Below are positions 16,114 through 28,597 of a stretch of 42,392 nucleotides of DNA, piece after piece. A model generated the notes under the pieces. It did not search any database, had not been told where the DNA came from, and saw only the letters and a list, made by a program, of their open reading frames with translations. A program made the translations under genes and the position numbers. The stretch is from the NCBI GenBank assembly GCA_002506595.1, contig DAXV01000006.1:17600-59991 (forward strand), in the 5' to 3' direction. Position 1 is the stretch's first letter, and every line of letters starts with the position of its first letter. The DNA is from Acidilobaceae archaeon UBA158 (lineage in GTDB: Archaea > Thermoproteota > Thermoprotei_A > Sulfolobales > Acidilobaceae).

Positions 16114-16225
<112 letters not shown>

Positions 16226-16314: not shown

Positions 16315-16755
16315 TTATTGAGATTTCTTAGATCTAGCACAAGCACCTAATCCTTTGGCTATATCGATAAGTATTCCTAAGCCTTGAGCAACATCAGGAT
16401 CTCCTAAAGCTCTCATTAAACCAAGCAAACCTAGTTTTCTTTCTTTTGAAACATCTATATTTCCTAAAGCATTAAATGCACAACTTGTTAAATCTTCCAT
16501 AGCCATCTTAGCTTTTGCATATTGTGTACCGTCAACTTTTTCAATACCTCTCCCCAATGTTGCCAATAAGCCTGCTAATCTCATCAAAACCGGATCATCA
16601 GCAACTGTTAAGAATGTATCGTCTGACTTTTCTGCTAAATAATTTAACAAACCTAGAAGACCGCTCTTTTTAAGAGCTGATATTGAATTTAATAATTGGC
16701 CAATTGTTTGAGCCTGTACTTCAGGAGAAATTTCCTCAACATTATTTTCTGCCAT
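16315..16755 (-). CDS. DUF1641 family helical protein
   Basis: LKKSGLLGLL near the N-terminus and the C-terminal signature KLGLLGLMRALGDPDVAQGLGILIDIAKGLG. Confidence 0.88.
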   Translation of the reverse strand: MAENNVEEISPEVQAQTIGQLLNSISALKKSGLLGLLNYLAEKSDDTFLTVADDPVLMRLAGLLATLGRGIEKVDGTQYAKAKMAMEDLTSCAFNALGNIDVSKERKLGLLGLMRALGDPDVAQGLGILIDIAKGLGACARSKKSQ

Positions 16756-16766
16756 CTTTTCTCACC

Positions 16767-17948
16767 TCAGAATTTTAATGAGTCTATCCAACCTCCATAA
16801 AAGCCTTGCTTTAATAATCTTCCAACAGTGTATTTACCTACAAAATAGCACTTTGGTACATACATACCTTTTTGCTCATCAAACGGAGTTTCACAAGTAC
16901 CAAGCCATCCTCTTTCTCCGGCATAACCAACACACGTTACTGGACTATATGGCTGTGCTGGAGCAAATCCAGTTAAATCAGCAATTATGTTTCCTGTTGC
17001 AGTTATAGCCATAGATTCCACGAATACTCCAGCCAATCCAATTCCTATAGTTGGTAAGCTATGCTCTCCTGCCATATAAACATCATCATATTGTGGATGC
17101 CTCATGGTTCTCGGCATAGCTGGAGACCATCTAGGATCTTGTTTAAATACAAAGCCTTCACTGTTTTCTAATGCCTTTGGTAATCTTGCTGGAGGTACCT
17201 TAACTAATAAGTCGTATTTGAATTCGCCTGAACTTGTAACAACTGTTTTCTTTTGCACATCAACTTCTCTTAGCTTTGCATTAGGTACATATTCTACTCC
17301 ATATTCATCTAAAGTTTCCTTTAAAAACCTTGATATTTCAGGACCTAATCCTCCATTTGGAACTGGCATTATAGGTGCTGGTATTGGATCTAACAAAGTA
17401 ACTTTAACTTTCTTACCTCTTTGTTTCATATATAAGGAAAGCATAGGCGCAGCTTCATATGGATATATTCCACATCTATATGGAAATTCCGGAACCAATA
17501 ATACTATATTTGAACCATCTTTTACTTGACTTAATGCCTTTCTCATTTCTAATGCTCCTTCTAATGTGAAGTTATGTACTCCATCTTTATCTAAACCTGG
17601 ATACGCATTCCATCCTTGATCTGTACCTAATGATACAATCAAATAATCGTACTGATATTTACCTTTTGCACCTATAACTGTTCTATTAGCTGCATCTATT
17701 TTAGTAATTTCATCAACTGCAGTTTTAATTCCATATTTTTCCATGTTAACTATCGGTGCTCTAGTATCTTCAGGCTCTCCATAATTAAATGCAACGTCAA
17801 AGAATAAAGGAGGCATATAATGAAATCCATCTTTGTTTACAACTAGTACTTCAGCATCTATATTTTTCTTTTTAATTTGTTCCGTCAATCTTTTTGCTGA
17901 GATATAACCGCCTATTCCACCGCCAGCAATAACAATTTTTTTAGTCAA
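16767..17948 (-). CDS. FAD-dependent sulfide oxidoreductase, SQR/FCSD family (copy 2)
   Basis: Rossmann motif IVIAGGGIGG, YDYLIVSLG, Cys motif PYRCGIYPYE, VYMAGE, LAGVF and distal Cys PVTCVG. Confidence 0.85.
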   Translation of the reverse strand: MTKKIVIAGGGIGGYISAKRLTEQIKKKNIDAEVLVVNKDGFHYMPPLFFDVAFNYGEPEDTRAPIVNMEKYGIKTAVDEITKIDAANRTVIGAKGKYQYDYLIVSLGTDQGWNAYPGLDKDGVHNFTLEGALEMRKALSQVKDGSNIVLLVPEFPYRCGIYPYEAAPMLSLYMKQRGKKVKVTLLDPIPAPIMPVPNGGLGPEISRFLKETLDEYGVEYVPNAKLREVDVQKKTVVTSSGEFKYDLLVKVPPARLPKALENSEGFVFKQDPRWSPAMPRTMRHPQYDDVYMAGEHSLPTIGIGLAGVFVESMAITATGNIIADLTGFAPAQPYSPVTCVGYAGERGWLGTCETPFDEQKGMYVPKCYFVGKYTVGRLLKQGFYGGWIDSLKF

Positions 17949-18075
17949 GACTATTCACCAATCCTATTTAATTATCATTTAATAGATTTTAAAAATCTTT
18001 CTAATGAGATGTATTATATTTAGAGAAAAGAAGTTAATAAAAATTATTAATTAATATTAACAAATAAAAGATTTG

Positions 18076-18486
18076 TTATGAACCTAAGACTTTTAATAAA
18101 TTTAGCATCAAGCTTAAACCTTTAGATACTTCAGGTTGTGATAAAGAAGTTATTAATCCTGATAGGGACATTGGTTTAGCTTCTTCTTTTTTCTTCATAA
18201 CTGATAAAGAATCTCCCATTTTATTTAATATTTCTTTATCTAATGATTCCAATAAACCTAACAAAAGATCTAATTTTTCTAAATTTTCTTGTCTTGTTAA
18301 TTTTTCAATTAATTTAATTAGTTGAGGTAATCTATCTATTACTAAAAACGTTTCTTCGCTTACTAAGAGATTTGATATCGCCTTTAATAATTCCTCATCT
18401 TTTAAGATGTTATTTAACAATTCAACAAGATTAAGAAGTCTTTCAATGCTTTCTGATTGAAGTTCAGCCTCATTTATTTCTTCCAT
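18076..18486 (-). CDS. DUF1641 family helical protein
   Basis: C-terminal KPMSLSGLITSLSQPEVSKGLSLMLNLLKVLG. Start moved to ATG 18486 after a GGTGA SD. Confidence 0.85.
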   Translation of the reverse strand: MEEINEAELQSESIERLLNLVELLNNILKDEELLKAISNLLVSEETFLVIDRLPQLIKLIEKLTRQENLEKLDLLLGLLESLDKEILNKMGDSLSVMKKKEEAKPMSLSGLITSLSQPEVSKGLSLMLNLLKVLGS

Positions 18487-18496
18487 AATAATCACC

Positions 18497-19684
18497 TTAT
18501 TTAAATATCCTCCACAAAACTTCAGGCTCTGTTCTTTCAAAATAAACATCAAATATTGGATCCCAGAATTCTGGATGTTTTATAACATCCCAATATACAT
18601 CCGCAAACAATCTTTTCATAATAAAGTTAATTGTATTTGCTGGAACTTTTACTGCAGGATGATTATAATCACTTATAACAAATGTACCTTTTTGAAAACC
18701 TATTTCTGTTGGACAATTTGTTCTACCAGTATTTTTAGCATCTAAGCCTAAGACTCTCTTGGCAACTACTTTAGCTTGTAAATGGGCCGTGACGCCAGTT
18801 TTAGCATTTGTTGACGTTGATGCATCCCCTATCGCAAAAGCATCATCATAACTTAATATTTGATTTGTTAGTTTATCTGCATTTATAAAACCATCCTGGT
18901 TTACAGAATCTTCAGGCTTAATCTCTATTTTAGGCCCTTTATGAACTGGGACAACAATAGCTGCATCATAACTTAGTTCTTCTCCTTCAAGAGAAGTAAT
19001 CTTTTTATTATCTGTATCTATCTTATCTGCAGTGAAAAATGTCATAACATTTATACCTCTTTCCTTTAATATGGGTTCTAAAACTTCGTTAAATGTTTCA
19101 GCGGGATAAGCCCTTGGATAAGGAACTGCTAATACCATGTTTATATTTTCTCTAACTCCTCTTAATCTAAAAACTTCATCTGCGAGCAAAATACCTTCAT
19201 AAGGAGATGGAGGACATCTATGATAAGGATCTCCTACTGATATCACAAACGTTCCTTTTTTCATGCTATTCACAATATTAAACACCTTTGAAGCATTTTC
19301 AGGAGTAGAGTGAAAATCGCCAAATTGATTAACTAGTTTTTCATTACCTTCAATTGATTTATGATCTATTGTAACTCCAGGAGCAATAGCTATATAGTCA
19401 TAACTTAATTTTTTATTTGTGCTTAAAGTAATGCTTCTTTCTTGTAAGTCTATCTTCTTAACACTATCAATGATTAAATTAACTCCTTTAACTAAAAGCG
19501 AGCTTAATGGCCTATATAAATTGGAATAATCATTTCTAAATGCTATTTGTAAAAGTTGAGGCCAATAATAATGATTAGGAGAGTCATTTATTACTGTTAC
19601 ATCAAACTCTTTAGCTAAAGAATTAGCTAAGATTGCCCCTCCAGAACCACCACCTACTATTAAAAATTTCTCTTTTTCAATCAT
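18497..19684 (-). CDS. sqr: Sulfide:quinone oxidoreductase-like flavoprotein (copy 1)
   Basis: LIVGGGSGG, YDYIAIAPG, PYHRCPPSPYE, FAIGDA, AKTGVTAHLQA and GRTNCP, i.e. two-Cys SQR-type motifs. Confidence 0.87.
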   Translation of the reverse strand: MIEKEKFLIVGGGSGGAILANSLAKEFDVTVINDSPNHYYWPQLLQIAFRNDYSNLYRPLSSLLVKGVNLIIDSVKKIDLQERSITLSTNKKLSYDYIAIAPGVTIDHKSIEGNEKLVNQFGDFHSTPENASKVFNIVNSMKKGTFVISVGDPYHRCPPSPYEGILLADEVFRLRGVRENINMVLAVPYPRAYPAETFNEVLEPILKERGINVMTFFTADKIDTDNKKITSLEGEELSYDAAIVVPVHKGPKIEIKPEDSVNQDGFINADKLTNQILSYDDAFAIGDASTSTNAKTGVTAHLQAKVVAKRVLGLDAKNTGRTNCPTEIGFQKGTFVISDYNHPAVKVPANTINFIMKRLFADVYWDVIKHPEFWDPIFDVYFERTEPEVLWRIFK

Positions 19685-19709
19685 TTTAATCAATCCTCTA
19701 AGAAAAAAA

Positions 19710-19952
19710 TTATTTTTTTGCTGTAATTTTAATCACAGCGATTATCTTATCTTTATCTTCTTTTAAATCTACCAGCTCGTTCTTTGTTCTTTCTATCCAT
19801 GCTTTAATATCACTCTTAAATCCGGGATCTGTGGCCCAAATTTCTAATACGTCACCATTTTTTGCATTTCTATATGCTTTAGTTAAATTTGTTATAGGAC
19901 CTGGACAAGATAAACCCCTTGCATCTATTACCTTTTTTTCTTTTTCACTCAT
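19710..19952 (-). CDS. tusA: Sulfur carrier TusA/SirA family protein
   Basis: IDARGLSCPGP (CPxP) and ATDPGFKSDIKAW. ATG 19952 follows a GGTGA SD. Confidence 0.95.
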   Translation of the reverse strand: MSEKEKKVIDARGLSCPGPITNLTKAYRNAKNGDVLEIWATDPGFKSDIKAWIERTKNELVDLKEDKDKIIAVIKITAKK

Positions 19953-19962
19953 ATTTTTCACC

Positions 19963-20367
19963 TCAAATAAATAACGTCTGACCCCCTTCAGAATTCTGTA
20001 AAAATGTTGCTACACCAACAACATCATCTACCAATTCATTAAAGTCTTCCTTCTTTAATCCCATAACAGATGCCATTAGACTGCATGCATATATCTTTAC
20101 TCCCATTGATTTTGCTTCTTTTAGCATATCAACCCATGATGGAGCATTATTTTTCTTCATACCTTCCATTAATAATGGAACCATGTTTTCGAATTCTTTC
20201 GGCCAAACAGGACTTGCAGGTTTTTTAGTAAATTTAGTTAAGGCCCATCCAGTAACAAATATTTGGACGTCCATTCCCATAGCTGCAGCTCCTTGAGCAA
20301 TTACTCCAACAGGTATAAGTTTATCATCTGTTCCAGAATATACAATAATAGATAGTTTAGACATCAT
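19963..20367 (-). CDS. dsrE: DsrE/DsrF-like sulfurtransferase (soluble)
   Basis: KLSIIVYSG, GAAAMGMDVQIFVTGW, conserved Cys in KIYACSLMASVMG and VGVATFL. Confidence 0.92.
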   Translation of the reverse strand: MMSKLSIIVYSGTDDKLIPVGVIAQGAAAMGMDVQIFVTGWALTKFTKKPASPVWPKEFENMVPLLMEGMKKNNAPSWVDMLKEAKSMGVKIYACSLMASVMGLKKEDFNELVDDVVGVATFLQNSEGGQTLFI

Positions 20368-20449
20368 ACCACCTCTTCCACTTATTTTTTCTTTTTAGAG
20401 AATTTTATTTCTTAATATATGCTGTATCTATACGAATAGAATATTAGTG

Positions 20450-20473
20450 CTTATATAGTAATCTCTATATAAG
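20450..20473. promoter_or_regulatory. Perfect 9-6-9 inverted repeat in the divergent dsrE / 20531 intergenic region (candidate operator or back-to-back TATA boxes)
   Basis: CTTATATAG-taatct-CTATATAAG read directly from the sequence. Function is inferred. Confidence 0.5.
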
Positions 20474-20530
20474 AAATTATCATTTTATTAATATAAATTT
20501 AAATATTCCAAAGTATAAAATACTATATAG

Positions 20531-20977
20531 GTGTTAAACGAGCTTATGGATCAATTCCCACTAGTTTATGTTGACCAAGTAATTGGGTTGGTAAAGTATT
20601 TGAATTCCATTGGCGGAAAAGTTGATTCATCAAGATTAGATGAAATGTTAGATGTAGATATTGATTTATTACCCCATGTTATAAAAGCAGCTGAAATAAT
20701 TGGATTAGTAAAGCAATCAAATGGAGACTTAATTATTACAGAAAACGGTAAAAAAATTGAAGAAGCGGAAAATAAAGATATGAGAATAATTATGAAAAAA
20801 TTAATTAAGAATGTAGAACCATTTAAGGAAATAATATCTAATGCGAAGAGGAATCAGATTAATGTAGAAAAACTAACAGAGATATTAGAAAAAAATGGCT
20901 ATAATAATATTGATGAAGCTATTAATATTATAACACAATGGTTAGCCCTAATCGGAATAAATGTAATACTAGAATAA
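20531..20977 (+). CDS. Stand-alone AAA-associated (winged-helix) domain protein
   Basis: LDVDIDLLPHVIKAAEIIGLVKQSNGDLIITENGKK and TQW resemble the C-terminal domain of NitT/TauT-type ABC ATPases. No Walker motifs. Confidence 0.7.
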   Translation: MLNELMDQFPLVYVDQVIGLVKYLNSIGGKVDSSRLDEMLDVDIDLLPHVIKAAEIIGLVKQSNGDLIITENGKKIEEAENKDMRIIMKKLIKNVEPFKEIISNAKRNQINVEKLTEILEKNGYNNIDEAINIITQWLALIGINVILE

Positions 20978-21004
20978 ATTTAAAATAAGAAAACAAATAA
21001 AGAT

Positions 21005-21364
21005 TTAGATTAAGTCCTTTTCTTGTGATTCTTGTAATTTTTCTGGAGTTATAACCATAACCATTTTATTTACCATTAATTCTACTATCTTTTTTATTCC
21101 TCTTTGGCCAGGAGAATATTTTGACCTGACAATATCTACTTCTTCAAGCCTCCTTATTTGGCTACTTACATTTGCTTTGCTTTGATTTACTAAATTTGCT
21201 AGATCCTCTAAATCTGCAGGTCCTTTTTGCAATATTGCTAATATTTTTGCTCTTGTATCACTAGCTAATGCAGACGAAACTTTAGCTATAGCCTTAGGAC
21301 CTATTACATACAATACTTTATCTCTTTCATAAATACCTTCCTTTGTAGGTATATTTTCTGACAT
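21005..21364 (-). CDS. ArsR-family winged HTH transcriptional regulator
   Basis: ALASDTRAKIL...DLANLVNQSKANVSSQIRRLEEVDIVRSKYSPGQRGIKKI. Confidence 0.9.
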   Translation of the reverse strand: MSENIPTKEGIYERDKVLYVIGPKAIAKVSSALASDTRAKILAILQKGPADLEDLANLVNQSKANVSSQIRRLEEVDIVRSKYSPGQRGIKKIVELMVNKMVMVITPEKLQESQEKDLI

Positions 21365-25915: not shown

Positions 25916-26743
25916 TTGCAAAAATCTTTTTTGTATGAAATAGGAAATACAAAAGTCTTTACTATTATTGATAAAACAAGACCAATAGCGTATAGTGATG
26001 ATTCAATAGCAACATTAAGGAAGATTATAAGAACTACTGGTGCTAGAGCATTGCCAATACTTGATAGAAATTCAGGTGAATTTTTAGGAATTATTAATAG
26101 AAGCGATGTATTAATAGTATCATCGACGAAAACAAATGCAACTTCCTCATCAATAGTTAAAGAACCCTTAATAGAAATTAATGAAAACAATACAGTGTTC
26201 GAAGCTTTAAATTTAATGTTTAAATATGATTTATGGGAAGTTCCTATATTAGATGAGAAAAAATATATGGGTTTATTAAGTATATCAGACATAGTAAGAT
26301 TACTATTTAATAAGGCTAAAGATTATTTAAAAAATCTTAGTGTAGAGAATTATATGACAAAAGATCCTATAACAGTTAACATTGATGACCCAATATCAAA
26401 AATTTGGAAGAAAATGATGGAATATAAATATGCAGGTTTCCCAGTTATAAATGATAAAGAAAAGCTTGTTGGGATAATTACTCAATTTGATCTTATTAAA
26501 AAAGGTTATACAAGAATACATTTAGAAAGTGAATCTGGGATAACAAATCCTACTAAAGTTAAAGATGCTATGACTTATACTGTAATATATGGATATCCAT
26601 GGTCAACACTTTATGAAATTGCTATACCTATAGTAAAAAAGGATTATGGAAGAATACCTATAGTATCTAGCGAAAACGATAAAAAAGTGGTTGGGATAAT
26701 TGATAGAGAAGATATAGCTAAAGTGATAACTAGAGGTGAATAA
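25916..26743 (+). CDS. CBS-domain protein (four CBS repeats) 1
   Basis: Repeats ALPILD..GIINRSD, VPILD..GLLSISD, FPVIN..GIITQFD and IPIVS..GIIDRED. Confidence 0.92.
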   Translation: MQKSFLYEIGNTKVFTIIDKTRPIAYSDDSIATLRKIIRTTGARALPILDRNSGEFLGIINRSDVLIVSSTKTNATSSSIVKEPLIEINENNTVFEALNLMFKYDLWEVPILDEKKYMGLLSISDIVRLLFNKAKDYLKNLSVENYMTKDPITVNIDDPISKIWKKMMEYKYAGFPVINDKEKLVGIITQFDLIKKGYTRIHLESESGITNPTKVKDAMTYTVIYGYPWSTLYEIAIPIVKKDYGRIPIVSSENDKKVVGIIDREDIAKVITRGE

Positions 26744-26745
26744 AC

Positions 26746-27735
26746 TTGAGTAGCTCAAAAAAGATGACAAATATTAAGATATCTAAGTATGTTAAACCTA
26801 TAACAAATGTATCTTCTAAATATTCAATAGGCTATAGATACATTAGGGCTGATAGCGAACCTAATTGGTCACAAAGAGTTAAAGAAAAAAGTGGAGATGC
26901 AGGTCTGTTAGCTTCAAAACCAGCTATTACTATAAATCAAAATTCAACTATATTGGAAGCGTTAGAAAGGATGTCCTCTTCCAATGTTAGAGGATTAATT
27001 GTATCTGATACAAAACAATTATTAAAAGGAATAATTATGGCAACGGATCTAGTTAATTACCTTGGAGGAGGGGAATTTTATAATATAATCCAACAGAGAT
27101 ATAACAAAAACTTATTTAATGCACTTCAAAATGAAAAGGTATCTAGCATAATGAATACAATGCCTGTCTTTGTCAAATCATCTCAAAAATTAACAGAAAT
27201 AATAAAATTAATGGCAATAAATAACTTAGGTATGTTACCGGTTGTAGATGATCAAAATAAAGTTATTGGAGTTATAACAGAACACGATATTGTAAAACAA
27301 ATAACATACAAAGACACTGGCAAAAAAGTTTCGTCGATAATGACATCTAATATTGTTTCTGCATATGAAAATGACACTTTAAAAAGGGCTGCCCAGCTAA
27401 TGTCATTATATGGATTTAGAAGAATACCGATAATTTCTATGAAAGGAAATGAAATTATAGGCATTGTTTCGGCTAAGGATTTCGTTAATTTCTTCGGATC
27501 ACATGAAGTTTTTAAGAATGCCAGCTCATATAATATAGAAGATATATTATCATTACAATTAACCCTGATAATGAAAAAAGAAATAAACACAATTAATGAA
27601 AATGCAGACATTGGAGAAGCTGCATCAGAAATGATGAAACATAATACAAACAGTTTAATAGTTATTAACGATAACAATGAGGCTGTTGGTATCATAACTG
27701 AAAGAGATTTATTAATGTCATTAGCATTGAGGTGA
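26746..27735 (+). CDS. CBS-domain protein (four CBS repeats) 2
   Basis: GIIMATDLVNYLGGG, LPVVD..GVITEHD, RRIPII..GIVSAKD and GIITERD. Confidence 0.92.
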   Translation: MSSSKKMTNIKISKYVKPITNVSSKYSIGYRYIRADSEPNWSQRVKEKSGDAGLLASKPAITINQNSTILEALERMSSSNVRGLIVSDTKQLLKGIIMATDLVNYLGGGEFYNIIQQRYNKNLFNALQNEKVSSIMNTMPVFVKSSQKLTEIIKLMAINNLGMLPVVDDQNKVIGVITEHDIVKQITYKDTGKKVSSIMTSNIVSAYENDTLKRAAQLMSLYGFRRIPIISMKGNEIIGIVSAKDFVNFFGSHEVFKNASSYNIEDILSLQLTLIMKKEINTINENADIGEAASEMMKHNTNSLIVINDNNEAVGIITERDLLMSLALR

Positions 27736-27739
27736 AATT

Positions 27740-28597
27740 ATGGCACCAAGAATTTCTTCATATATGAAGACCCCAGTATATGCAGTATCTTCTAACGACT
27801 CTTTAGCACACGCTAGAAATCTAATGCTCAAAAAAGAAATAAGCAGACTAGTAATAGTTAATGAGAAAGATGAGCCTGTTGGAATACTAACCACAACAGA
27901 TATTATAGATGCTTTATTTGGAAAAAATTATCAAAAACCCTTAGAATCAATATTAGTTGGAGAAGTCATGACTAAGGATCCTATAATTATTGAAGAATCT
28001 AAGAGTTTGAAGTCTGCTTCTCAATTAATGCTGAAGCACAGAATAGGAGGATTACCAGTCGTAGATGCTAACAAAAAACTTGTAGGAATTTTAACAAAAA
28101 CTGATATAGTAAAGGCATTTTATGATAAATATAAAGGAAAATATAAAGTTGGAGATATAATGAGAAAAGATTATTCAACCGCATTACCTGGACATAGCAT
28201 ATTTTATATAGCTAGGTTAATTGAAAGTGATCCAACCGGTAAAGTTATAATTATAGACGAATCTAATAAACCTATTGGAATAATAGCCAAGAAAGATATA
28301 GCTTATGCTCAATTACCCTTGTCTATTTTAATGTCAAGAGGTAAAGATAGATTCATAAGAAACAAAGTTCCAGATTTATATAAAGAAAAAATTATTAGTT
28401 TGAGAATGTATCTTGTGCCTATAGCAGAAGATATAATGTCATCAAATCCATTTATAGTTAGGCCTGAAGATGATGCAGCCGATGCAGCAAAAATAATGAT
28501 CGAAGAAAATATAGGTGTTTTACCAGTTGTAGATAATAATGCACTAATAGGAATAGTGAGCAAACTAGAATTAATGAATGTAATAGCAAAGGATTAA
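27740..28597 (+). CDS. CBS-domain protein (four CBS repeats) 3
   Basis: HARNLMLK..GILTTTD, GGLPVVD..GILTKTD, GIIAKKD and LPVVD..GIVSKLE. Confidence 0.92.
   Translation: MAPRISSYMKTPVYAVSSNDSLAHARNLMLKKEISRLVIVNEKDEPVGILTTTDIIDALFGKNYQKPLESILVGEVMTKDPIIIEESKSLKSASQLMLKHRIGGLPVVDANKKLVGILTKTDIVKAFYDKYKGKYKVGDIMRKDYSTALPGHSIFYIARLIESDPTGKVIIIDESNKPIGIIAKKDIAYAQLPLSILMSRGKDRFIRNKVPDLYKEKIISLRMYLVPIAEDIMSSNPFIVRPEDDAADAAKIMIEENIGVLPVVDNNALIGIVSKLELMNVIAKD

What the first reader, a model, noticed from the sequence alone, without database searches (positions are those of the whole stretch)
16315..21364. Compact sulfur-trafficking islet: dsrE-tusA-SQR-DUF1641 plus a second SQR-DUF1641, with adjacent regulators
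Seen: six co-directional genes between core loci (rpoH/tRNA-Lys and rio2). The first four have gaps of roughly 1-25 nt. DsrE (YACS), TusA (CPGP) and both flavoproteins keep their catalytic Cys. No persulfide dioxygenase, rhodanese, TauE, Hdr-like or Dsr genes are in the window. Known: DsrE and TusA relay persulfide/thiosulfonate sulfur, for example beside sHdr clusters in Sulfolobales, and SQR/FCSD enzymes interconvert sulfide and sulfane sulfur. Inference: this is a self-contained DsrE-TusA-SQR relay that may run reductively (S0/polysulfide respiration) or as oxygen-independent sulfide detoxification. It is the best candidate for an under-described system in this window.
Basis: partly seen in the sequence, partly recalled or inferred. 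Interest (0 to 1): 0.75.

Follow-up and report, generated by a model that had tools for sequence, protein, structure and literature searches.

The report
Sulfide oxidase on a quinone tube
A hot-spring archaeon carries six co-directional genes for two small sulfur-carrier proteins and two sulfide:quinone-oxidoreductase-type flavoenzymes, each flavoenzyme gene followed by a helper of a family that elsewhere builds quinone-carrying tubes; the enzymes are predicted to dock on these helpers and likely oxidise toxic sulfide, likely handing the sulfur to the carriers.

Summary
The genes, gaps and cysteines are as described. A model of SQR1 with four HMP1 scores 0.65 (best control 0.00), docking through SQR1's C-terminal helices.

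The locus is two separable units. Unit A, dsrE-tusA-SQR1-HMP1, is conserved across several archaeal phyla: DsrE within 1 kb in 62 of 70 loci, TusA nearby in 52 of 70, HMP directly downstream in 51 of 80. Unit B, SQR2-HMP2, often stands alone.

Direction is unproven; oxidation is favoured. 29 of 31 unit-A genomes tested have a terminal oxidase, and a bacterial SQR-TusA-DsrE2 operon is sulfide-induced. Reduction stays open because this genome shows no Psr/Sre anchor. The neighbouring regulators lack cysteines and are not shown to belong.

SQR-HMP synteny, enriched in Crenarchaeota, is already in print, as are TusA-SQR-DsrE clusters. This scan found similar cassettes on other DNA (8 notes). I found no paper with a purified SQR-HMP complex. 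Verdict: real and testable, a variant of known kinds, not a new system.

The parts
19963..20367 (-). DsrE-family sulfur carrier, DsrE2B-like, single Cys95
   Evidence: Pfam DrsE_2 84 bits. Best PDB hit 2QS7, E 2.4e-36, which PMC4175335 names DsrE2B. 48.5% identity to the DsrE beside tusA in locus L198, against 32.6% to the DsrE downstream of an SQR there.
19710..19952 (-). TusA sulfur carrier, CPGP motif, Cys16
   Evidence: Pfam TusA 76.6 bits; Cys position.
18497..19684 (-). SQR1: two-cysteine SQR-family flavoprotein (Cys157, Cys324), no signal peptide seen; partner of unit A
   Evidence: Best NCBIfam model is type III SQR, 209.7 bits, below that subtype's cut-off of 525. Best PDB sequence and structure match is human SQOR (E 3.7e-26; TM 0.85). 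Both Cys invariant in 109 of 109 aligned relatives.
18076..18486 (-). HMP1: DUF1641 / helical-membrane-plugin protein, predicted tetrameric quinone-tube scaffold for SQR1
   Evidence: DUF1641 39.1 bits at residues 99-137. Complex model with SQR1 scores 0.65 against 0.00.
17985..18003 (-). TATA-like box with a purine-rich BRE-like stretch in the 127-nt gap; possible separate promoter of unit B
   Evidence: A TTTTTAA box lies at a similar distance upstream of SQR2 in the 5 same-genus loci printed. Read by eye in AT-rich DNA; no transcript data.
16767..17948 (-). SQR2: divergent SQR/FCSD-like flavoprotein (23% identical to SQR1), Cys159/Cys339 plus a conserved Cys352/Cys367 pair
   Evidence: FCSD_central 51.4 bits; best PDB hit the FccB chain of 5N1T, E 6e-23; identity. 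The four Cys are kept in 47, 47, 47 and 46 of 47 aligned sequences.
16315..16755 (-). HMP2: DUF1641 / HMP protein with a co-occurring Cys92/Cys139 pair
   Evidence: DUF1641 45.6 bits. Top PDB sequence hits are HucM (E 0.017) and ForE1 (E 0.23). All-helical model whose top VIA hit is HucM, Z 4.8, rmsd 8.0, 121 aligned, which is weak. Both Cys in 42 of 50, neither in 6, one in 2.
20531..20977 (+). Stand-alone AAA_assoc_C (winged-helix-like) protein, divergent from dsrE; link to the module unproven
   Evidence: PF09821 68.9 bits; no Cys. Divergent from dsrE in Caldisphaera and Acidilobus loci, within about 3 kb in 5 Thermoproteus-family loci, not seen at the other loci.
21005..21364 (-). ArsR-family HTH protein without cysteines; probably not a persulfide sensor
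   Evidence: HTH_5 34.4 bits; no Cys; its position varies among same-genus and same-family loci.
16114..16225 (-). tRNA-Lys(UUU) with a 17-nt intron (flank marker)
   Evidence: Rfam tRNA 62.9 bits; ARAGORN with introns.

Best explanation
The locus encodes two SQR-family flavoproteins, each followed by a DUF1641/HMP gene; each enzyme is predicted to dock by its C-terminal helices on a tetramer of its HMP protein, which likely pipes membrane quinone to it, and the complex likely oxidises cytoplasmic sulfide, likely passing the sulfane sulfur from SQR1 to DsrE/TusA and the electrons to cytochrome bd. Shown: gene order, families, catalytic cysteines, conservation of dsrE-tusA-SQR1, independence of the SQR2-HMP2 pair. 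Predicted: the SQR1-HMP1 interface. Inferred by homology to Huc, ForCE and Ndh-YjlC: the hollow tetramer and quinone transport. Inferred: SQR1 needs a thiol acceptor as human SQOR does, and DsrE2B/TusA is that acceptor. Inferred and least certain: the oxidative direction, serving sulfide detoxification and oxygen scavenging in a sulfidic, low-oxygen spring. The persulfide would then leave through the rhodanese, the CoA-dependent reductase or biosynthesis encoded elsewhere.
For: Family: both small ORFs pass the DUF1641 cut-off. PMC13524794 and PMC13433803 show such proteins form quinone tubes and that Ndh docks through its C-terminal helices. Model: SQR1 with 4 HMP1 scores 0.65 against a best control of 0.00; this mark was reached by 116 of 157 solved complexes and 2 of 215 mismatched pairs, counts that hold only roughly here; runs agree in at least 92% of contacts; partner pLDDT at least 89; the interface is mainly SQR1 350-393 against two HMP1 copies. 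Conservation: among 80 named loci, DsrE within 1 kb in 62 of the 70 with enough upstream DNA, TusA within 2.2 kb in 52 of 70, HMP directly downstream in 51 of 80. No SQR2-clade protein had DsrE within 450 nt (0 of 38 rows). SQR1's closest solved structure is human SQOR (TM 0.85); that it needs an acceptor is recalled. Direction: 29 of 31 unit-A genomes have cytochrome bd (26) or a strong COX1 match (3 more), against 20 of 31 with an NrfD anchor. Six complete or near-complete genomes of SQR-negative families lack bd, COX1 and NrfD. 15 unit-A genomes have 3-6 UbiA-family matches against 1-2 in 5 SQR-negative genomes. The bacterial type III SQR-TusA-DsrE2 operon of Methylacidiphilum is induced about 1.7-fold by sulfide along with a sulfide-insensitive oxidase (PMC10205796 passages). 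TusA-SQR-DUF1641 also occurs on both haloarchaeal plasmids I opened.
Against: No activity, transcript or purified complex exists for this locus. The model may pass by likeness to solved Ndh-YjlC/Huc complexes, and only SQR1-HMP1 was modelled. HMP is dispensable in part of the family: 29 of 80 loci lack it downstream, mostly Micrarchaeota and Thermoplasmatota. TusA is missing from between dsrE and SQR1 in Acidilobus-type loci. M. cuprina DsrE2B, the closest characterised DsrE, reacted with none of six sulfur compounds and did not bind TusA (PMC4175335). The quinone is not identified: this genome has only a partial MqnA/D match at a contig end, a complete same-genus genome has none, 21 of 31 unit-A genomes lack it, and no MenD passed cut-off in 21 genomes. 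Two unit-A genomes (G034, complete; G076, 96%) have no oxidase match. Caldisphaera is described as an anaerobe (passages). No persulfide dioxygenase partner lies in the cluster. Genomes counted are kin and not independent.
Confidence: 0.55

Rival explanations
1. Same SQR-HMP architecture, run backwards: quinol from the tube reduces carrier-bound persulfide or polysulfide to H2S, so the locus is a cytoplasmic, quinone-linked sulfur reductase replacing Psr/Sre.
For: This genome (95.8% complete) and a complete same-genus genome have no NrfD anchor. The two molybdopterin enzymes here start with an Fe-S domain and sit behind NuoF-like genes, unlike PsrA/SreA (read by eye). A YeeE-type importer is present. 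In the obligate H2/S0 respirer Ignicoccus hospitalis a 385-aa FAD oxidoreductase and its DUF1641 neighbour are abundant and rise 5- and 10-fold together, while the sulfur reductase is scarce (PMC3149612). Three genomes of family f9 carry SQR2-type genes and no oxidase. G034 keeps unit A with no oxidase.
Against: Uphill under standard conditions (S0/HS- about -270 mV against menaquinone about -74 mV; recalled values). 20 of 31 unit-A genomes have an NrfD anchor anyway, and 6 genomes of families f20/f34 keep the unit alongside full heme-copper oxidases. An Npsr/CoA-disulfide-reductase-like gene beside yeeE offers another route to H2S (PMC3654217 passage). The family-f9 orthologues lack the second catalytic Cys, so they may do other chemistry.
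Confidence: 0.2
2. Unit A mainly makes protein persulfide from environmental sulfide to supply sulfur for biosynthesis (tRNA thiolation, molybdo/tungstopterin, Fe-S clusters); quinone reduction only disposes of the electrons.
For: TusA and DsrE/TusD serve as biosynthetic sulfur relays (PMC4175335 abstract for TusA; TusD recalled). The three-gene core is kept in many Micrarchaeota genomes and in G034, which has no oxidase.
Against: No thiolase, Moco or Fe-S gene recurs among the neighbour clusters of loci L072-L181 (top 30 clusters read by eye). The Methylacidiphilum operon rises with sulfide while sulfur assimilation falls.
Confidence: 0.13
3. The SQRs bind the membrane directly like other monotopic SQRs; the DUF1641 genes are neighbours that serve another enzyme, or none.
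For: 29 of 80 close SQR1 relatives have no HMP downstream yet keep the same C-terminal helices. A C-terminal charge difference between the two groups did not hold in other clades.
Against: The HMP gene follows the SQR by about -10 to +25 nt in most loci. Both DUF1641 matches in this genome lie behind an SQR. The complex model passes. PMC13433803 reports most HMP genes next to SQR.
Confidence: 0.08

Closest known systems
HMP/DUF1641 quinone-tube complexes: Ndh-YjlC (Ncp), ForCE, Huc (PMC13433803; PMC13524794)
   Same: C-terminal DUF1641 helix pair, all-helical protein, basic C-terminal and acidic N-terminal part, gene adjacent to a quinone-linked oxidoreductase of the NDH-2/SQR superfamily, predicted docking through the enzyme's C-terminal helices. 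PMC13433803 already states that most HMP genes lie next to SQR, that they are enriched in Crenarchaeota, and that SQR was probably the ancestral partner.
   Different: The enzyme is a two-Cys SQR, not an NADH, formate or H2 dehydrogenase; the host is an archaeon; two paralogous pairs lie in tandem; sulfur carriers are attached. No SQR-HMP complex was purified or solved in the papers I could read. The aromatic residue at the YjlC head (Phe108) has no obvious match here, and filament formation is untested.
Type III SQR-TusA-DsrE2 operon of Methylacidiphilum fumariolicum SolV (MFUM_v2_0219-21; PMC10205796)
   Same: The same three gene families in one operon; induced by sulfide; linked to a sulfide-insensitive oxidase.
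   Different: Bacterial aerobe; reverse gene order; no DUF1641 named in the passages read; no second SQR; sequence orthology not tested here.
Metallosphaera cuprina tusA-sqr-dsrE4 (Mcup_1722-1724) and dsrE3A-dsrE2B-tusA beside sHdr (PMC4175335)
   Same: TusA, SQR and DsrE together in an archaeon; loci of family f13 with this order also end in a long DUF1641 gene.
   Different: The window's DsrE and TusA are closer to the dsrE2B-tusA pair (48.5% and 43.5%) than to the SQR-flanking DsrE4/TusA (32.6% and 27.9%). So the pair that sits beside sHdr in Sulfolobales is joined to an SQR here. No DsrE3A or sHdr in the window.
Staphylococcus cst and Bacillus licheniformis yrk/sqr-pdo sulfide-detoxification clusters (PMC9918477)
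   Same: SQR with TusA- and DsrE-type carriers (fused in CstA).
   Different: Those clusters include persulfide dioxygenase, rhodanese, TauE and a Cys-based repressor; this one has none in the cluster and has HMP genes instead.
Human SQOR (type II SQR; PDB 6OI5, 8DHK)
   Same: Closest solved structure of SQR1 (TM 0.85); two-Cys active site at equivalent positions.
   Different: 22% identity; binds the membrane directly; uses small-thiol acceptors (recalled).

Membership tests
SQR/FCSD flavoprotein family | FAD-binding Rossmann fold with two redox cysteines at the SQR positions | tested here: met
   Cys invariant in 109 of 109 (SQR1 group) and 47 of 47 (SQR2 group).
SQR/FCSD flavoprotein family | Sulfide:quinone oxidoreductase activity | not testable with these tools
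   No assay possible.
Type III SQR (as against type II or FCSD) | Falls in the type III clade of a reference tree or passes a type III model | tested here: inconclusive
   Best NCBIfam model is NF049943 (209.7 and 128.6 bits, cut-off 525 for its selenoprotein subtype). Best PDB hits are type II SQOR for SQR1 and FccB for SQR2. My tree had no typed references.
Flavocytochrome c sulfide dehydrogenase (FccAB) | Export signal on the flavoprotein and an adjacent cytochrome c subunit | tested here: not met
   Both proteins start directly with the FAD-binding strand; the neighbours are DUF1641 genes, not cytochromes.
HMP/DUF1641 scaffold | C-terminal DUF1641 domain above the curated cut-off | tested here: met
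   45.6 and 39.1 bits against 21.
HMP/DUF1641 scaffold | Gene adjacent to a quinone-linked oxidoreductase that docks on it | tested here: met
   Adjacency. Docking is predicted only: 0.65 against 0.00.
HMP/DUF1641 scaffold | Fold like HucM/ForE/YjlC | tested here: inconclusive
   Foldseek gave nothing at E 0.001 or better; VIA top hit HucM, Z 4.8, rmsd 8.0, tied with unrelated helical chains.
HMP/DUF1641 scaffold | Hollow tetramer holding quinone or lipid and binding the membrane | not testable with these tools
   No coordinates are returned; the tetramer itself was not scored (HMP pLDDT 69-72).
DsrE2B-TusA sulfur carriers | Closest to DsrE2B, with the conserved active-site Cys; TusA CPxP motif | tested here: met
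DsrE2B-TusA sulfur carriers | Persulfide loading and transfer | not testable with these tools
   The one characterised DsrE2B was unreactive in vitro (PMC4175335).
sHdr-LbpA sulfur-oxidation cluster | shdr and lbpA genes beside the carriers | tested here: not met
   No CCG match on the window's contig; the 4 matches lie on three other contigs, two of them beside LUD or FAD-oxidase genes.
cst/yrk-type SQR-PDO detoxification operon | Persulfide dioxygenase, rhodanese, TauE and a Cys-based sensor in the cluster | tested here: not met
   matches only on other contigs; the regulators have no Cys.
Psr/Sre polysulfide or sulfur reductase | Molybdopterin catalytic subunit with an NrfD-type anchor | tested here: not met
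   No NrfD match in this genome (95.8% complete) or in G006 (complete).

The most novel reading that the evidence does not exclude
Caldisphaera and its relatives respire elemental sulfur with a cytoplasmic SQR run in reverse on an HMP quinone tube, fed with sulfane sulfur by DsrE2B/TusA: a quinol-driven sulfur reductase with no molybdenum enzyme and no membrane anchor, possibly polymerising into filaments, with SQR1 and SQR2 specialised for opposite directions or substrates. It would be the proposed ancestral form of all HMP complexes.
Probability: 0.2. Interest if true: 0.8.

Novelty: new variant of a known kind. Interest (0 to 1): 0.5.

Why it matters
Three HMP quinone-tube complexes have been solved, all bacterial. 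The commonest and proposed ancestral form, SQR-HMP, is known only as gene synteny in the papers I could read. This locus offers two small thermophilic SQR-HMP pairs with a confident docking model, so the idea can be tested by co-expression and cryo-EM. It also suggests a job for DsrE2B, a carrier that showed no reactivity in vitro, as an enzyme-loaded acceptor. And it bears on how sulfur-reducing archaea without Psr/Sre handle sulfur. The cassette itself is widespread and partly described, so the value lies in testability, not in rarity.

Tried and rejected
Horizontal-transfer islet: no compositional contrast and a conserved position beside rpoH.

One six-gene system: rejected. SQR2-HMP2 occurs without DsrE/TusA in at least 14 fetched loci, and the 127-nt gap has a TATA-like box.

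Persulfide-sensing by the neighbouring ArsR or winged-helix gene: no Cys, variable position.

C-terminal charge as a marker of HMP docking: +0.3 (70 rows) against +3.2 (39 rows) within the SQR1 group, but other HMP-linked clades are at about +3, so I rejected it as a lineage trait.

Operator search: exact repeats in the intergenic gaps were only AT-rich matches. A CTCTA-NN-TAGAG dyad appeared in 4-5 of 27 upstream regions, all close kin, overlapping the ribosome-binding site and not exact in the window (the 27 were those my start-finding pattern caught). The sigma-70 scan was at chance level and does not suit archaea.

Expression: no RNA holder was listed.

HMP2 fold search: no Foldseek match; YjlC and ForE were not listed in the VIA search.

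The maximum-likelihood tree did not finish; the FastTree versions have long branches and no typed references, so I use them only for grouping.

A Pfam scan of the whole window was not completed: 12 proteins around the locus were scanned, the rest read as translations and covered by whole-genome family scans.

Papers not held: Broc et al. 2025 on ForCE/HMP and Lencina et al. 2013 on the Caldivirga SQR.


Full report
OBSERVATION. The six genes are present on the minus strand with gaps of 10, 25, 10, 127 and 11 nt. Families pass curated cut-offs: DrsE_2, TusA, Pyr_redox_2 twice and DUF1641 twice. Cysteines are DsrE C95, TusA C16, SQR1 C157/C324 and SQR2 C159/C339/C352/C367. The two flavoproteins are 23% identical and the two DUF1641 proteins align only at the C-terminus, so the tandem is not a recent duplication. 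Named homologues at 78-87% identity point to the genus Caldisphaera. GC content does not mark the cluster as foreign. In same-genus and Acidilobus loci it lies beside rpoH, in either orientation.

WHAT THE DUF1641 GENES ARE. A library search for the term gave 16 papers. PMC13524794 (abstract, sections 7, 12, 13 and passages read; 14 supplements listed, not read) and PMC13433803 (sections 6, 11 and passages; one supplement searched without hits) show that DUF1641/HMP proteins form tetrameric hydrophobic tubes carrying quinone to Ndh, formate dehydrogenase or hydrogenase. PMC13433803 states that most HMP genes lie next to SQR, that copies are enriched in Crenarchaeota, and that SQR was probably the ancestral partner, citing Broc et al. 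2025 (not held). The window's HMP2 has HucM and ForE1 as its top two PDB sequence hits, both weak. Its model is all-helical, with HucM the top but unconvincing structural hit. Score 0.65, best of 3 controls 0.00; the mark was reached by 116 of 157 solved complexes and 2 of 215 mismatched pairs, counts that hold only roughly for this job; runs agree in at least 92% of contacts; partner pLDDT at least 89. The interface is mainly SQR1 350-393 on two HMP1 chains. That is the region Ndh uses on YjlC, so the pass may reflect likeness to solved complexes.

TWO UNITS. DUF1641 was found in 23 of 41 related genomes, including the window's; 34 regions around the matches were fetched. An SQR1 alignment (80 of the 120 listed hits) gave 216 confirmed stretches in the genome collection, of which the best 80 were returned. 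Ten lacked 900 nt upstream and were dropped for upstream counts. DsrE lay within 1 kb in 62 of 70, TusA within 2.2 kb in 52 of 70, and an HMP gene directly downstream in 51 of 80 (profiles were built from these same loci). Carriers include Acidilobus, Thermoproteus, Vulcanisaeta, Caldivirga, Thermocladium, Thermofilaceae, Pyrodictiaceae, Bathyarchaeia, one Promethearchaeati contig, Micrarchaeota and Thermoplasmatota. Micrarchaeota and Thermoplasmatota loci lack the HMP gene; 8 Thermoplasmata loci lack DsrE and TusA; Acidilobus-type loci lack tusA at this place. In a phylum sample, 110 of 251 genomes had an SQR-family match at E 1e-30. Forty further regions down that ranking show dsrE-tusA-SQR continuing to about 320 bits, then tusA-SQR-dsrE-long HMP in family f13, then SQR-HMP pairs without carriers. 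In a FastTree of 176 proteins the SQR2 clade (38 rows) had no DsrE within 450 nt, and 28 rows had HMP downstream (biased, since many loci were fetched by DUF1641). So DsrE/TusA go with SQR1, and SQR2-HMP2 is an independent unit with a possible own promoter.

THE CARRIERS. DsrE's best PDB hit is 2QS7, which PMC4175335 (passages) identifies as DsrE2B. In locus L198, which holds both arrangements, the window's DsrE and TusA are closer to the dsrE/tusA pair (48.5%, 43.5%) than to the genes flanking the SQR (32.6%, 27.9%). The same paper already notes tusA-sqr-dsrE4 in M. cuprina, and found DsrE2B unreactive with six sulfur compounds and not binding TusA. That is evidence against a simple chemical relay, though it fits a carrier that is loaded only by an enzyme (inference). 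SQR1's model (pLDDT 95.7) is closest to human SQOR (TM 0.85). That type II SQRs need a thiol acceptor is recalled, not from a call.

DIRECTION. I took 31 genomes in which the dsrE-(tusA)-SQR1 context was seen directly, out of 51 handles searched. Cytochrome bd was found in 26 and a strong COX1 match in 3 more; G034 (complete) and G076 had neither. NrfD was found in 20 of 31, MqnA/D in 10 of 31, counting a partial match in this genome. MenD passed cut-off in 0 of 21. UbiA-family matches numbered 3-6 in 15 unit-A genomes and 1-2 in 5 SQR-negative ones. These are kin, so no test is claimed. The pattern fits a quinone-linked enzyme that usually has an oxidase downstream, but the quinone of Caldisphaera is unidentified. 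For oxidation: PMC10205796 (passages) reports a type III SQR-TusA-DsrE2 operon induced about 1.7-fold by sulfide; TusA-SQR-DUF1641 sits on both haloarchaeal plasmids I opened of 104 records with a match; and in 4 of 4 family-f20 loci printed an ArsR with two cysteines follows SQR1. For reduction: no Psr/Sre anchor here or in G006. PMC3149612 (section 7 part 1 and passages) shows a 385-aa FAD oxidoreductase and its DUF1641 neighbour abundant and co-induced in Ignicoccus hospitalis. Handle G187 has an SQR2-type gene of 385 aa followed by DUF1641, which I take as the orthologous pair. It lacks the second catalytic Cys, so its chemistry may differ. This genome also has an Npsr/CoA-disulfide-reductase-like gene beside a YeeE-type transporter (the Npsr label is from recalled motif and domain set), an alternative route to H2S of the kind PMC3654217 proposes for such archaea (passages).

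REGULATORS. The ArsR and the AAA_assoc_C protein have no Cys. The first moves among relatives; the second stays divergent from dsrE only in Caldisphaera and Acidilobus and nearby in Thermoproteus-family loci. Neither is shown to control the cluster.

PRIOR ART AND NOVELTY. Nine library searches found the synteny statements above but no purified or solved SQR-HMP complex, and no description of this four-gene unit in anaerobic Thermoprotei. Subscription papers, Broc et al. 2025 and unread supplements may hold one. Other papers seen as passages only: PMC8808070, PMC11724291, PMC6378623, PMC9918477, PMC11323534, PMC8551704, PMC11094781, PMC4668684, PMC4187147. This scan's notes hold 8 similar cassettes in other genomes and none near this locus; I had reached the HMP reading before that look-up (note), and took from it the Methylacidiphilum lead, which I checked.

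VERDICT. A real, conserved, two-unit locus. Best reading: HMP-tethered SQRs, with SQR1 coupled to a DsrE2B-TusA pair, likely oxidising sulfide (0.55). Reverse operation as a sulfur reductase 0.2; biosynthetic sulfur supply 0.13; no SQR-HMP complex 0.08. New variant of a known kind; interest 0.5.

Noticed in passing
window 16315-16755: HMP2 has two cysteines (C92, C139) that occur together in 42 of 50 relatives and are both absent in 6; possibly a structural disulfide near the tube head. SQR2 likewise has an extra near-invariant pair (C352, C367).
   Followed up: partly
L084-L087 (about 1330-2150) and L150: A DsrC/TusE-like gene (label by eye) directly followed by a second HMP gene lies about 3 kb from unit A in Thermoproteus-family loci.
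   Followed up: no
L118, L120, L126, L133, L139, L140, L146: In these Thermoplasmata loci SQR1 has no DsrE/TusA and converges on a 250-296 aa leucine-rich helical protein, in most cases behind a second SQR. The one scanned had no Pfam match; it may be a long, divergent HMP.
   Followed up: partly
L113-L151 (Micrarchaeota loci): Many Micrarchaeota keep dsrE-tusA-SQR1 without HMP, unexpected for small host-associated genomes.
   Followed up: no
L179-L183, directly after SQR: An ArsR-family gene with two cysteines (BigR/SqrR-like spacing, recalled) follows the unit in family f20; the family-f34 counterpart keeps only the C-terminal one.
   Followed up: partly
L226 1036-2655 and L230 1498-2601: The family-f9 SQR2 orthologue lacks the second catalytic cysteine but has a CGC motif at the first; a second, 367-aa SQR-like protein in the same genome has no HMP neighbour.
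   Followed up: partly
G000:C14:14949-20650 (L244): CoA-disulfide/Npsr-like flavoprotein, YeeE-type sulfur transporter, a MerA-like flavoprotein and an ArsR gene lie together: a candidate S0 uptake and reduction locus.
   Followed up: partly
G000:C27:13133-15331: A 732-aa heme-copper-family protein with a weak COX1 match, by length like a quinol-dependent NO reductase; similar in G006 and several relatives.
   Followed up: no
G218:C1:438260-441074 (L168, L236): A UbiA-family prenyltransferase gene lies within about 1 kb upstream of unit A.
   Followed up: no
upstream of dsrE in L051, L078, L082, L112: A CTCTA-NN-TAGAG palindrome overlaps the ribosome-binding site in Acidilobus-type loci; only partial versions in the window (20367-20530).
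   Followed up: partly
window 25916-28597: Three tandem proteins that read as CBS-domain repeats (label by eye) follow the MAT gene.
   Followed up: no
G000:C58:12560-12956 (L247): A partial MqnA/D-family gene at a contig end, absent from the complete same-genus genome G006; quinone synthesis in this genus is unresolved.
   Followed up: partly
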